A program made the translations under genes and the position numbers. The notes below the pieces were generated by a model, which searched no databases, had not been told where the DNA came from, and was given only the letters and a program-made list of their open reading frames with translations. From NCBI RefSeq assembly GCF_009914755.1, contig NC_060927.1: a stretch of 64,000 nucleotides of DNA, one strand, 5' to 3'. This stretch comes from the human T2T-CHM13v2.0 reference genome, Homo sapiens. Below, piece by piece: positions 51,027-53,205 of the stretch. Numbering within the stretch: position 1 is the stretch's first letter; every line of letters starts with the position of its first letter.

Positions 51027-52445
51027 TTAATGTACAATAAGTATGCATGTATTTATTTTGATACTGATCAAATTCTATCCAAAAGGCTATAGCACACAAA
51101 CATGGATGCACTGATACTGGCTTCTACATTCTAGAACCCAAAATAAGTTAACATGCAGAAATCAATGTGCATATTTTGTACAGCTTCCTACTCACCTATT
51201 TCCCCAATTCTAAAGTCACGTAAAATGTTCCTTCTTGGTTTGTCTTCCTAATTGGGTGATTTGGCAAGTGTAGAGTGAGTGGCCACCCCACTGCCTCTAA
51301 AAACAGAGGAGTCAAGTGTAACAACAGGTTGGTTATAAGCATTATGATGCCTTTGTTCTCATGAGCAGTCAGAAGTAAAATATCTGACACCTTTTTTCAT
51401 GCACCAAACCTCACTCTAAATTGACTCTTAGTCTTTTATCACCCACCCCCACAAATGATCATTTTCCACAGTCCATGGCTCACCAATGAGTAAGCTAATC
51501 AATACAGTAAAAATGTAAATGTTTGTTCCACTCAGTACTCTTAAATATTGGAGTGGACACTTTCAAAATCACCTTTCCCTGATAACATAAAAGCTCTCTA
51601 AATCCCTGATTAATTACTTCTCAGGCACCTGTTAATCTCCCTCGCTGTTTCCAATTAACAAAATCAAAACCAACAGGTTTTAACATTCTTGCCAAAAAGA
51701 CCAATTGTGTTGATTCATCCACCTGGCCCTCTCCTGAAAATGGTTGCTTATCTCTGCTTTCCATCTTTAACTGTTTAATAAATGTTTTTATTGTAAGCCG
51801 GGACTCCTATTAAGATATGCAGACTAAATATATCTCTTTTGTTCTAATATTTAGATTTCAAAAAATCGATTTCAAGCCTCTCCAAAAGCATTTCTTCTAA
51901 ATAATGTGAGGCTGTGCCTCCTTGCATTACTTTACTTCCCTTGTGCACATCAATAATGAGATTCCAGGAGGAGGTCAATAGGACACTGGAGAATAAGACA
52001 AGACAAAGTCGGTGTCACAGCCGGGGTTCAGCATCCCACCGGTGCCCACACTAGGCCCCACACAAGAAATTACACGACAGTTACAGCGTTCATGTGAGGT
52101 GGGGCCAAGGGCCTTGGCAAAGGAATTTCAGTGTCCAACTCCACCAGGAGTCCCAACCAAATGAGAAAGTAATTCAATCTTTACAGTCTTTATAGTGAAA
52201 AGCTATTAACGAGGTGTCTTTTGCTATGTTGTGAAAAATGAAAAGAATAAATCCTTACTGCTTGACTAGAGAAAAAAAGTACATTCAAGAGCCTCTGTTA
52301 ATTTACATGATGGGTAGTTTAGCACACCTGGCTGCAGACAAGTGCAACCTATGCAAATAGGTAACCCCCAGCTGAAAGACTACAGACACCCAAACCTCCT
52401 ACTCACAAGTATGCTTTGTTTTTATCAAGCAACCAGCTTTTGAGA

Positions 52446-52503
52446 GTCTCTCTGAACCTATTCTGGTTCTGGAGGCTGCCTGATTTAAAACACAAAAAGA
52501 GAA
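52446..52503 (+). mobile_element. Micro-retrocopy: 41-nt ERV1-LTR (MER57-like) R-region fragment plus A-tail, flanked by a 19-bp TSD
   Basis: GTCTCTCTGAACCTATTCTGGTTCTGGAGGCTGCCTGATTT + AAAACACAAAAAGAGAA, flanked by AAGCAACCAGCTTTTGAGA (52427-52445) and AAGAAACTAGCTGTTGAGA (52504-52522), 16/19 identical. Confidence 0.65.
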
Positions 52504-53205
52504 AAGAAACTAGCTGTTGAGATAGGAAGGAGCACCTTGGAAGGTACAAACTGATCTAGTATGCTGACAATCAATCAATCAATACCTCAAAACATGTAAC
52601 CTTGACTGGACTAACGCACTCTTTTTTCCTCTTGGCTTCCAGTAGGATTACTGCACTAATTCCCAAGAGCTGCTGAAGTATGAGGCTGACTTTGCTCCTC
52701 GGTTTTGTTATCAGCCTTAGTTAAGGTGTTTGAGAGAAACAGATACTTAAAATGTGTGATTACAGTTTAAAACATCAAGGGACTCTGATTAAATCTTTAA
52801 GTGGTGCTAACAGCCTTAATAACTTTAATTTGTTAAATTTAGAAACTAAGTGAGGTTAATCAATGAATAAGTGAAACCATTTTTGACATGAAAATTACTA
52901 CTTTATAAATAAAAATTTATCTACAAGTTGAGCTTAAAGTTCAAGAAATACTAGGTTTTAAAATTTACTATTTTAATAAACTAATAATTGAAAAAGAACA
53001 ACTTACTATAAATATCATTCCAAACAAAAGCCCTCCTCAGTTATTAAAAACACAATGACAATTCACTTAACCTTTATGCCAGTATTTTAAACTTTCTCTT
53101 TTGCTTTAAAAAATAGTAATAATGACAAAGTTAAAAGACAGCAAGACAAGTCCCTGAAAGTGAAACAAAAACATCTAGAAGACACACACTGGAGTTGTTT
53201 TTTCT

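What the first reader, a model, noticed from the sequence alone, without database searches (positions are those of the whole stretch)
52427..52522. L1-retroposed copy of a tiny TAR-like RNA from an endogenous retrovirus LTR, a possible undescribed class of micro-retrocopies
Seen in the sequence: a 41-nt insert (52446-52486, GTCTCTCTGAACCTATTCTGGTTCTGGAGGCTGCCTGATTT) is followed by a decayed A-tail (52487-52503). It is bracketed by a 19-bp direct repeat (16/19 identical), which is the signature of L1 target-primed reverse transcription. The insert folds into a stem-bulge-stem-loop: AGUCUCU pairs with GGAGGCU (7 bp including G-U), then an internal loop, then GAACC/GGUUC (5 bp) closing a 6-nt UAUUCU loop. 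From memory of ERV1 MER4-group (MER57-like) LTR consensus sequences, this segment starts about 30 nt after the LTR TATA box, i.e. near the transcription start. It ends before the LTR's own ATTAAA poly(A) signal. LTRs integrate with 4-6-bp TSDs and no A-tail, so this is not an LTR integration or a simple deletion remnant. Inference: an ancient ERV made short promoter-proximal hairpin RNAs, analogous to the abortive HIV-1 TAR transcripts, which were oligoadenylated and captured by L1. If this recurs genome-wide, it would be a fossil record of pausing or attenuation control in an extinct retrovirus. I do not know of a published description, but I cannot exclude one.
Basis: partly seen in the sequence, partly recalled or inferred. 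Interest (0 to 1): 0.8.

Follow-up and report, generated by a model that had tools for sequence, protein, structure and literature searches.

The report
L1-copied 43-nt retroviral LTR start RNA
This is one of at least 45 tailed, duplication-flanked copies in the human genome of only the first ~40 bases (a hairpin) transcribed from an ancient retrovirus promoter, so the virus once made a very short RNA that the LINE-1 machinery copied back into DNA.

Summary
Window 52444-52486 is a 43-nt unit, followed by an A-rich tail (52487-52503) and flanked by a 16/19 direct repeat (52427-52445 / 52504-52522). It folds into the described hairpin (-16.2 kcal/mol, z -3.7).

The unit matches the first ~43 nt downstream of the TATA-predicted start site of an abundant gammaretrovirus-like (ERV1) LTR. 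I examined all 100 listed genomic matches to its first 26 nt. Of these, 35 are stand-alone copies like this one, 64 sit inside whole LTRs, and 1 is an L1-type retrocopy of the entire ERV RNA. That retrocopy starts at the same base but is polyadenylated at about +80, after the LTR's ATTAAA-type signal.

In all I saw 45 stand-alone copies:
- Their LTR homology ends between +27 and +50 (mode +42).
- 42 of 45 align from +1 to +3.
- They carry A-tails and significant target-site duplications.
- They carry extra non-LTR purines at the 5' junction.

How the short RNA arose is inferred: promoter-proximal termination, then adenylation or template switching. The LTR family name and empty orthologous sites could not be tested. 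Seven literature searches found no description.

The parts
52427..52445 (+). Upstream copy of the target-site duplication (AAGCAACCAGCTTTTGAGA). Its last 2 nt overlap the first 2 nt of the retrocopy body (junction microhomology).
   Evidence: 19 nt, 16/19 with 52504-52522; score 10; best in-locus control 8.
52444..52486 (+). Retrocopy body: positions +1 to +43 of the R region of an ERV1-type LTR, counted from the TATA-predicted transcription start.
   Evidence: the same unit stands alone or inside LTRs elsewhere. (best natural LTR reference L009, LTR positions 2-42). (TATA-like box at -31 in LTR copies).
52445..52477 (+). Predicted RNA hairpin: 7-bp stem, internal loop, 5-bp stem GAACC/GGTTC, 6-nt loop.
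   Evidence: MFE -16.2, z -3.72. (44 of 45 stand-alone and 74 of 89 LTR-side copies fold as one long hairpin). (apical-stem variants GAGCC/GGCTC and GAATC/GATTC keep the pairing).
52487..52503 (+). Decayed A-rich tail (AAAACACAAAAAGAGAA).
   Evidence: The same position holds A-tails in the other stand-alone copies.
52504..52522 (+). Downstream copy of the target-site duplication (AAGAAACTAGCTGTTGAGA).

Best explanation
Window 52444-52503 is a LINE-1-made (target-primed reverse transcription) retrocopy of a very short RNA, about 40-43 nt. The RNA began at the transcription start site of a gammaretrovirus-like (ERV1) LTR and comprised the 5'-terminal R-region hairpin plus about 9 more bases. It ended about 20 nt before the LTR's ATTAAA-type signal and about 38 nt before the site where the full-length viral RNA was polyadenylated. 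It is one member of a family of at least 45 such copies, probably of the order of 100.

Shown here: the copy's anatomy, the family, the shared 5' and 3' ends, the start site, the true poly(A) site, the ERV1 nature of the parent, and more than one source LTR subfamily.

Inferred:
- The RNA was a capped RNA polymerase II product that stopped, or was cut or trimmed, just past the hairpin. This resembles the short TAR-containing transcripts of HIV-1.
- It acquired an A-tail, or was reached by template switching from a poly(A) template.
- L1 ORF2p then inserted it.

The copy lacks the U3 promoter, so it is a dead-on-arrival pseudogene. It lies in an OSBPL10 intron, on the opposite strand to the gene, with no sign of function.
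For: **Anatomy.**

**Family size.** The 5' 26-mer has 386 matches at <=3 mismatches and the 3' 25-mer has 376. The reversed-pattern control gives 0 for both.

**Classes.** All 100 listed 5'-anchored places were read:
- 35 stand-alone tailed copies
- 64 LTR-embedded copies
- 1 retrocopy of the whole ERV RNA

**Ends.**
- Homology of all 45 stand-alone copies to natural LTR copies ends at LTR +27 to +50 (mode +42, 10 copies; 26 of 45 at +36 to +42). None reaches the signal at +62.
- 33 of 45 align from +1 and 42 of 45 from +1 to +3.

**Target-site duplications.**
- Score >=10 in 14 of 45 against 4 of 270 controls.
- Of the 17 with score >=9, 11 begin with AA (read). This fits the L1 endonuclease target.

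**Start site.**
- The TATA-like box has its first A at -31 in 39 of the 55 LTR copies that retain it.
- Locus L058/L082-L083 is an L1-type retrocopy of the full ERV RNA. It has no U3 upstream and starts at the same GAG. It contains gag/pol and ends U3-R...CTCTGTTAAA followed by an A-rich tail and a duplication, GAATAGATGA / GAATAATAGATGA. This fixes both the start site and the normal poly(A) site at about +80.

**Parent element.** Gag_MA 9e-17, Gag_p30 2e-56, RNase H and integrase domains.

**5' junction.**
- Position -2 is a purine in 42 of 45 stand-alone copies against 9 of 89 LTR-side copies.
- Position -1 is G in 37 of 45 against 47 of 89.
- These bases are therefore non-LTR additions. Extra G is the known mark of reverse transcription up to a cap (recalled knowledge).

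**No longer parent element.** Upstream flanks of stand-alone copies share only Alu-type repeats at differing offsets. Only the L004/L006 pair, a segmental duplicate, is colinear up to the copy.

**Several sources.** Start variants GAGCC, GAGTG and GAGTCA, and apical-stem variants, occur in both classes.

**Hairpin.** It is retained, with two double-sided stem changes between subfamilies.
Against: - No call shows the RNA itself, its cap, the polymerase that made it, or how its 3' end and A-tail arose.
- No empty orthologous site could be examined.
- The 5'-anchored sample cannot detect 5'-truncated copies. The 3'-anchored sample that could detect them held only 4 stand-alone copies among 30 places.
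- 31 of 45 copies have no duplication scoring >=10. Some of these have later Alu insertions in the tail; others are decayed.
- The extra 5' purines could partly reflect microhomology with the target rather than a cap. In L030 and in the window copy they lie within the duplication.
- Copy number beyond the 45 seen is an extrapolation.
- Stand-alone copies are rarer in the 3'-anchored sample (4 of 30). The production rate therefore differs between LTR subfamilies and is not a uniform property of the family.
Confidence: 0.8

Rival explanations
1. The A-tail was never on the RNA. A short non-adenylated 5' LTR RNA was picked up when L1 reverse transcriptase, having started on the poly(A) of another template such as L1, Alu or an mRNA, jumped to the 3' end of the short RNA. 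This is the mechanism proposed for U6 and other small-RNA pseudogenes and chimeras. It is a rival only for the tailing step.
For: The LTR sequence just after +43 is not A-rich, so internal priming is unlikely and some external source of A is needed. PMC13174262 (section 17 read) describes template switching and RNA ligation as routes by which small RNAs (U6, Y, tRNA, 7SL, 7SK, 28S) join L1 insertions.
Against: None of the 45 copies shows a fragment of L1, Alu or another RNA between body and tail inside the duplication. Where an Alu follows, as in L032, it has its own duplication. This does not exclude a jump made within the poly(A) itself.
Confidence: 0.3
2. The short RNA was an RNA polymerase III product. 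The TATA-like box at -31 would act as a type-3 (U6-like) promoter, and transcription would stop at the T-run at +41 to +43.
For: Many stand-alone copies end in TT or TTT before the A-tail (ATT or ATTT; window copy GATTT). Most known small-RNA retropseudogene families come from Pol III transcripts (recalled).
Against: - Nearly all LTR-embedded copies read have only 2-3 T at +41 to +43; one (L037) has a run of five.
- 3' ends spread from +27 to +50 and several end before the T-run, for example L055, L062, L067 and L132.
- The same start base is used by the polyadenylated full-length ERV RNA, a Pol II product.
- Extra 5' G/A bases suggest a cap.
- No PSE-like element was looked for with a model.
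Confidence: 0.07
3. The 42-43 nt are the whole R region. The RNAs would be R-only transcripts, or ends of viral RNA, cleaved and polyadenylated at the virus's normal poly(A) site, with CATAAA in U3 as the signal brought near by the hairpin, as in HTLV-type LTRs.
For: CATAAA is a recognised weak poly(A) hexamer (recalled). The hairpin could shorten the distance to +42.
Against: - The one L1-made retrocopy of the full-length ERV RNA is tailed at about +80, about 15 nt after the LTR's ATTAAA-type signal, which reads AATGAAA in that copy. It is not tailed at +42.
- 0 of the 64 LTR-embedded copies in the 5'-anchored sample carry U3 followed by a tail at +42.
- A signal upstream of the start site would not be in an RNA that begins at +1.
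Confidence: 0.03
4. It is a self-propagating or single-master mini-retroposon. All copies would descend from one locus in which the LTR start was joined to an encoded A-run.
For: Stand-alone copies are enriched for one 5' variant (GAGTCTCTCTG with ...GGTTCAGG...) and are rarer in the 3'-anchored sample of another subfamily (4 of 30).
Against: - Variants GAGCC, GAGTG and GAGTCA, and apical stems GAACC/GGTTC and GAGCC/GGCTC, all occur among stand-alone copies and also among LTR copies.
- 3' ends are spread over about 20 nt.
- A 43-nt unit has no room for, and shows no, internal promoter.
Confidence: 0.05
5. It is an ordinary decayed LTR fragment or deletion remnant, with a chance direct repeat.
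For: The 16/19 repeat alone is only modestly above in-locus controls.
Against: - The flanks have no LTR homology.
- Dozens of copies have the same start, end, tail and duplications.
Confidence: 0.02

Closest known systems
L1-made processed pseudogenes of full-length endogenous retrovirus RNA (HERV-W type; PMC5016936, seen as search listing and abstract only)
   Same: An ERV transcript that starts at the LTR start site is copied by L1, giving a poly(A) tail and long target-site duplications instead of the 4-6-bp retroviral ones. One such full-length copy of this very ERV exists (L058/L082-L083).
   Different: Only the first ~43 nt of R are copied. The 3' end is not the viral poly(A) site but lies about 38 nt upstream of it.
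Small-RNA retropseudogenes and L1 chimeras (U6, Y RNA, 7SK, 7SL, tRNA, snoRNA, microRNA precursors; PMC13174262 section 17 read; PMC7692494 listing and abstract only)
   Same: A short structured RNA, A-tailed or reached by template switching, is inserted by L1 with duplications, giving tens to hundreds of dead copies.
   Different: The source is not a cellular RNA gene but the promoter-proximal piece of a retroviral LTR transcript, probably Pol II-made and capped. At ~43 nt it is shorter than those RNAs (sizes recalled). PMC13174262 does not list LTR RNA among the small RNAs in the section read, and a term search of its text found no ERV mention.
HIV-1 TAR-containing short transcripts (PMC7824405, passages read)
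   Same: A hairpin forms at the very 5' end of R. Polymerase that initiates in the LTR yields short transcripts ending soon after the hairpin unless elongation is rescued.
   Different: This is a gammaretrovirus-like ERV with no known transactivator. The RNA is about 43 nt, whereas the review says HIV-1 transcripts pause after about 70 nt. Its existence is inferred from DNA fossils only. No functional analogy was tested.
R-region stem-loop of murine gammaretroviruses (recalled from the literature; no paper read here)
   Same: A conserved hairpin at the 5' end of R in a gamma-type LTR. Here the pairing is kept across subfamilies through double-sided changes.
   Different: No sequence similarity was tested. 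That element is described as a post-transcriptional enhancer, not as a source of short RNAs.

Membership tests
L1-mediated (TPRT) retrocopy / retropseudogene | A-rich tail directly after the 3' end of the copied RNA | tested here: met
   Window 52487-52503. The other stand-alone copies carry A-rich tails at the same place, though a few are short or degraded, e.g. L030, L031, L032, L076.
L1-mediated (TPRT) retrocopy / retropseudogene | Target-site duplication of roughly 7-20 bp flanking body plus tail | tested here: met
   Window 16/19. Family: score >=10 in 14 of 45 against 4 of 270 mismatched controls.
L1-mediated (TPRT) retrocopy / retropseudogene | Insertion at an L1-endonuclease-type target (duplication starting in A-rich sequence) | tested here: met
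   11 of the 17 duplications with score >=9 begin with AA, including the window's AAGC... (read). Several copies lie at Alu A-tails. No formal background test was run.
L1-mediated (TPRT) retrocopy / retropseudogene | Empty orthologous site with one duplication copy in a lineage that predates the insertion | not testable with these tools
   Only the human assembly is held; no other mammal genome is available.
Solo LTR or LTR fragment left by retroviral integration or recombination | U3-R-U5 with TG...CA ends and a 4-6-bp duplication, or flanks that continue the LTR | tested here: not met
   Only +1 to +43 of R is present. Upstream and downstream flanks have no LTR homology, and the duplication is 19 bp.
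ERV1 (gammaretrovirus-like) origin of the parent LTR | Internal region with gamma-type gag (MA p15, CA p30) and pol, next to the LTR and a primer-binding site | tested here: met
   L082 open frames hit Gag_MA 9e-17, Gag_p30 2.2e-56, RT_RNaseH_2 and rve. An 18-mer starting TGG follows the LTR end in L028, L058 and L061, and a mutated form (TTGG...) follows it in L018. The Repbase/Dfam family name was not testable.
TAR-type promoter-proximal short transcript | Hairpin beginning at or next to +1 of R | tested here: met
   (prediction and conservation only).
TAR-type promoter-proximal short transcript | Short RNAs made by paused or terminated Pol II, relieved by a transactivator | not testable with these tools
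   No transcript data are available. The short RNA's existence is inferred from 45 DNA copies whose homology ends at +27 to +50.
Pol III small-RNA pseudogene (U6 / Y / 7SK type) | Source gene ends in a run of at least 4 T | tested here: not met
   Nearly all LTR copies read show 2-3 T at +41 to +43; one (L037) has a run of five. 3' ends are spread and some lie before the T-run.
Known Rfam RNA family | Match to a curated covariance model | tested here: not met
   Window 52300-52650 gave only a chance OmrA-B hit, E 0.72, 17.4 bits against a gathering score of 40.

The most novel reading that the evidence does not exclude
An extinct gammaretrovirus-like ERV produced abundant ~40-nt capped hairpin RNAs by promoter-proximal termination at its LTR, a TAR-like attenuation step outside the lentiviruses. 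L1 fossilised about a hundred of them. If so, they would be an undescribed class of micro-retrocopies and among the shortest L1 passengers known, and retrocopy ends could be read as a palaeo-record of nascent-RNA 3' ends at ancient promoters.
Probability: 0.35. Interest if true: 0.8.

Novelty: new variant of a known kind. Interest (0 to 1): 0.66.

Why it matters
- The copies map, base by base and from DNA alone, the start site of an ERV promoter that has been dead for tens of millions of years. They also reveal a discrete short transcript from that promoter.
- They show that L1 can mobilise RNAs of only ~40 nt that are not classical small-RNA genes.
- They add an overlooked source of about 100 hairpin-bearing fragments that repeat annotation would probably file as LTR fragments (my assumption; not checked).
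- If the short RNA reflects hairpin-linked pausing or termination, promoter-proximal control of retroviral transcription would be older and wider than the lentiviral Tat/TAR system.
- The window copy itself has no evident function.

Tried and rejected
- **Rfam.** A scan of 52300-52650 found no known RNA family.
- **Literature.** Seven searches found no description of short LTR-start retrocopies. One search was used only to find the HERV classification paper.
  - PMC13174262, a catalogue of L1 chimeras, was checked by term search and by reading section 17. It names no LTR RNA.
  - The library lacks most subscription papers, Repbase/Dfam notes and closed supplements. Absence there is weak evidence.
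- **Family name.** PMC4724089 was searched for a Leu primer site and for MER4/MER57.
- **Splice donor at +43/+44.** Rejected. Positions +43 to +48 differ among LTR copies (TGTG, CACA, CGCA, CATG and others) and no GT is conserved.
- **The 43 nt as the whole of R.** Rejected by the full-length retrocopy tailed at about +80.
- **The copies as the 3' end of a longer retroposon.** Rejected by flank comparison.
- **Micro-copies in sister LTR subfamilies.** I hand-picked 20 places with recurrent variant 3' strings from the list. All 20 were LTR-embedded.
- **R-only (~80-nt) tailed copies.** I saw none among the 100 5'-anchored places.
- **Classifier errors.** The automatic classifier mislabelled L049 and L079 (chance motif hits), and L030, L031, L032 and L076 (short tails). 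I reclassified these by eye as stand-alone copies.
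Full report
**1. The observation**

- A 19-nt direct repeat, 52427-52445 and 52504-52522, matches at 16 of 19 positions.
- Between the repeats lie the insert and a 17-nt A-rich stretch (52487-52503).
- RNA folding of 52445-52486 gives exactly the described shape: a 7-bp stem with G-U pairs, a small internal loop, the 5-bp stem GAACC/GGUUC and a 6-nt loop.
- The MFE is -16.2 kcal/mol against -7.97 +/- 2.21 for 200 dinucleotide shuffles (z -3.72).

**2. What the insert matches**

A search of the window's own assembly with 52380-52560 returned 40 scored matches of 105 candidates. 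Almost all begin at query position 64-65, which is window 52443-52444.

Printing the flanks showed two kinds of match.
- In the first kind, the unit is embedded in a longer repeat. A box of the type CCATAAAT lies about 30 nt upstream. About 65 further conserved bases lie downstream, with AATTAAA, and the repeat ends ...TTTTAACA. This is an LTR with U3, R and U5.
- In the second kind, the unit stands alone. It begins at the same GAGTCTCTCTG, ends near ...GCCTGATT(T), is followed by an A-rich tail, and the whole is flanked by direct repeats.

The window copy is of the second kind. Those two bases are shared with the upstream repeat.

**3. How common it is**

Pattern counts in the genome, at up to 3 mismatches:

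| Pattern | Matches | Reversed-pattern control |
|---|---|---|
| 34-mer | 48 | 0 |
| 3' 25-mer | 376 | 0 |
| 5' 26-mer | 386 | 0 |

Only the first 100 places of each list are printed.

I fetched and read all 100 printed places of the 5' 26-mer list. These are 66 places with 0-1 mismatch and 34 with 2 mismatches.

| Mismatches | Places | Stand-alone tailed | LTR-embedded | Whole-ERV retrocopy |
|---|---|---|---|---|
| 0-1 | 66 | 26 | 39 | 1 |
| 2 | 34 | 9 | 25 | 0 |
| All | 100 | 35 | 64 | 1 |

- Four of the LTR-embedded places are segmental duplicates (L110-L113).
- The script classifier was corrected by eye for six loci; these are listed under Tried and rejected.
- I also read all 30 places with 0-1 mismatch on the 3' 25-mer list. 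Four are stand-alone and 26 are LTR-embedded.
- With the first 30 loci, I saw 45 stand-alone copies in all. L004 and L006 are a segmental duplicate. L069 holds two copies in inverted orientation.
- Extrapolating 26-39% to 386 matches suggests about 100 copies. This is an estimate, not a count.

**4. Shared ends**

Each stand-alone copy was aligned locally to 87 of the 89 LTR-side copies (L061 and L135 left out) and scored against the best one.
- 33 of 45 align from LTR position +1 and 42 of 45 from +1 to +3. The other three have 5' mismatches, not truncations.
- All 45 alignments end between +27 and +50. The mode is +42 (10 copies), and 26 of 45 end at +36 to +42.
- A second group ends at +44 to +50. 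Part of this group is overshoot of the alignment into the A-tail.
- None reaches the poly(A) signal.
- The 5'-anchored sample cannot reveal 5'-truncated copies. The four stand-alone copies in the 3'-anchored sample are all full length, but four is a small number.

**5. L1 hallmarks**

A duplication finder compared each copy's own flanks with mismatched flank pairs from other loci.

| Score | Stand-alone copies | Mismatched controls |
|---|---|---|
| >=10 | 14 of 45 | 4 of 270 |
| >=12 | 7 of 45 | 0 of 270 |

- The window copy scores 10.
- Of the 17 duplications with score >=9, 11 start with AA (read).
- Those 17 duplications differ at 15 of 238 positions (my sum). This figure is biased low by selection, but it indicates insertions tens of millions of years old.
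- Several tails carry later Alu insertions (L022, L031, L032, L043, L069, L074), which hides their downstream duplication.
- Upstream flanks share only Alu-type repeats at differing offsets and orientations. Only L004/L006 are colinear up to the copy. The unit is therefore not the tail of a longer retroposon.

**6. Mapping on the LTR**

Among the 89 LTR-side copies:
- 55 keep an NATAAA box within 45 nt upstream, and in 39 of those its first A is at -31.
- 54 keep A(T/A)TAAA downstream, starting at +62 or +63 in 45.

The LTR ends about +107. In L028, L058 and L061 it is followed by an 18-mer starting TGG, which looks like a primer-binding site; L018 has a mutated form.

**7. Locus L058, the key independent check**

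- Here the unit has no U3 upstream but continues through U5, the primer-binding site and the leader.
- About 16 kb downstream, after later insertions, lies a 3' LTR piece.
- This piece runs from U3 through R to ...GCTCAATGAAACTCTGTTAAA. An A-rich tail and a copy of the upstream flank follow it (GAATAGATGA against GAATAATAGATGA).
- L058 is therefore an L1-made retrocopy of the full-length viral RNA.
- It shows that transcription started at the same GAG as in the short copies.
- It also shows that the normal poly(A) site is at about +80, roughly 15 nt after the signal.
- Open-frame pieces between the two ends hit Gag_MA (9e-17), Gag_p30 (2.2e-56), RT_RNaseH_2 and integrase. The parent is thus gammaretrovirus-like (ERV1).

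**8. The 5' junction**

| Position before GAG | Stand-alone copies | LTR-side copies |
|---|---|---|
| -2 is a purine | 42 of 45 (G 28, A 14) | 9 of 89 (mostly C or T) |
| -1 is G | 37 of 45 | 47 of 89 |

- In copies with clear duplications, 0 to 4 such bases lie between the duplication and GAG.
- These bases are not LTR sequence and not random target sequence.
- They fit untemplated addition when the reverse transcriptase reaches a capped 5' end (recalled knowledge of extra G at full-length L1 and pseudogene 5' ends), or microhomology-guided joining.
- Either way, the cDNA regularly ended at one RNA 5' end.

**9. The hairpin**

| Class | Single long hairpin in +1..+36 | Mean MFE | Mean MFE of shuffles |
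|---|---|---|---|
| Stand-alone | 44 of 45 | -14.5 | -6.5 |
| LTR-side | 74 of 89 | -12.5 | -6.4 |

Figures are; the pair table is.

Across 154 copies, including 20 hand-picked sister-subfamily LTRs, the apical stem reads:
- GAACC/GGTTC in 76 copies
- GAGCC/GGCTC in 4 copies
- GAATC/GATTC in 4 copies

The last two are double-sided changes that keep the pairing. They mark subfamilies, so they represent few events. Even so, they argue that the hairpin mattered to the replicating virus.

**10. Mechanism**

Shown: L1-type insertion of a discrete RNA that spans LTR +1 to about +36-50.

Inferred steps:
- A capped Pol II transcript stopped, or was cut or trimmed, a few bases past the hairpin.
- It gained an A-tail through nuclear surveillance adenylation, or the L1 enzyme jumped to its 3' end from a poly(A) template.
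- It was then inserted.

HIV-1 offers the nearest functional picture. In HIV-1, polymerase initiating in the LTR yields short TAR-containing transcripts unless Tat acts (PMC7824405, passages read).

Rivals considered:
- **Pol III.** Disfavoured. Nearly all LTR copies read lack a run of 4 T at +41 to +43 (L037 is the exception), the 3' ends are spread, the polyadenylated full-length RNA uses the same start, and the 5' extras suggest a cap.
- **The unit as the whole of R.** Rejected by L058.
- **A single master locus.** Disfavoured. Start variants (GAGCC, GAGTG, GAGTCA) and stem variants occur in both classes.
- Production was nonetheless uneven among subfamilies: 4 of 30 in the 3'-anchored sample, and 0 of 20 in the hand-picked sister subfamilies.

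**11. Comparison and novelty**

L1-made retrocopies of small RNAs are known, and so are those of full-length HERV RNA:
- PMC13174262, section 17 read.
- PMC7692494, listing and abstract only.
- PMC5016936, listing and abstract only.

New here is the source: the promoter-proximal ~43 nt of an LTR transcript.
- Seven searches of the paper library found no description.
- Rfam has no family for it.
- Repbase/Dfam curators' notes, subscription papers and closed supplements could not be seen. A prior mention cannot be excluded.

**12. Limits**

- No repeat library, so no family name.
- No other mammal genome, so no empty-site test and no dating by phylogeny.
- No transcript data.
- The window copy lies in an OSBPL10 intron on the opposite strand (hub annotation) and shows no sign of function.

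Noticed in passing
L058 and L082+L083 (G000:C6:87678894 to about 87695120): An L1-type processed retrocopy of a whole ERV1 RNA. It starts at the LTR start site without U3, holds degraded gag/pol (Gag_MA, Gag_p30, RNase H, integrase hits), and ends U3-R at about +80 with an A-rich tail and a duplication of roughly 10 bp. At about 16 kb it is long, so later insertions are likely inside it.
   Followed up: partly
L018, L028, L058, L061, just after the LTR end (about +108 from the start site): An 18-mer starting TGG (in L028: TGGTGTCAGAAATGGGAT) follows the LTR and looks like a primer-binding site; L018 carries a mutated form. From memory it resembles the complement of the 3' end of a leucine tRNA. 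I did not test this, and it did not help to name the ERV family.
   Followed up: no
L069 (G000:C12:101445083-101445780): Two stand-alone copies in inverted orientation about 650 bp apart. Each is followed by a short A-run and an Alu, with similar flanks. This looks like an inverted local duplication rather than two insertions.
   Followed up: no
L004 and L006 (G000:C15:42735923 and 42770599): The same stand-alone copy with the same flanks appears twice, about 35 kb apart and on opposite strands. It is an inverted segmental duplication, counted as two places in the tallies.
   Followed up: partly
L110-L113 (G000:C1:121.0, 142.9, 144.3, 148.8 Mb): One LTR copy, followed by a (TG)n run that replaces its U5 end, is present four times in pericentromeric chromosome 1 segmental duplications.
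   Followed up: no
L109 (G000:C1:92898842) and L114 (G000:C1:217620682): L109 has an unusually long, pure A-tail (about 31 A, then CAAA repeats) for so old a family. L114 carries an internal insertion or duplication of about 17 nt within the 3' arm of the hairpin.
   Followed up: no
L136-L155 (sister LTR subfamilies): Related LTR subfamilies have different U3 ends (for example a CTATAAAAG-type box) and variant hairpin arms. In the 20 hand-picked places they are all ordinary LTR copies without stand-alone derivatives. Short-RNA retrocopies therefore seem tied to particular subfamilies.
   Followed up: partly
window 52502-52592, minus strand: A weak Rfam match to the bacterial sRNA family OmrA-B (17.4 bits against a gathering score of 40, E 0.72). 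It is a chance hit.
   Followed up: yes
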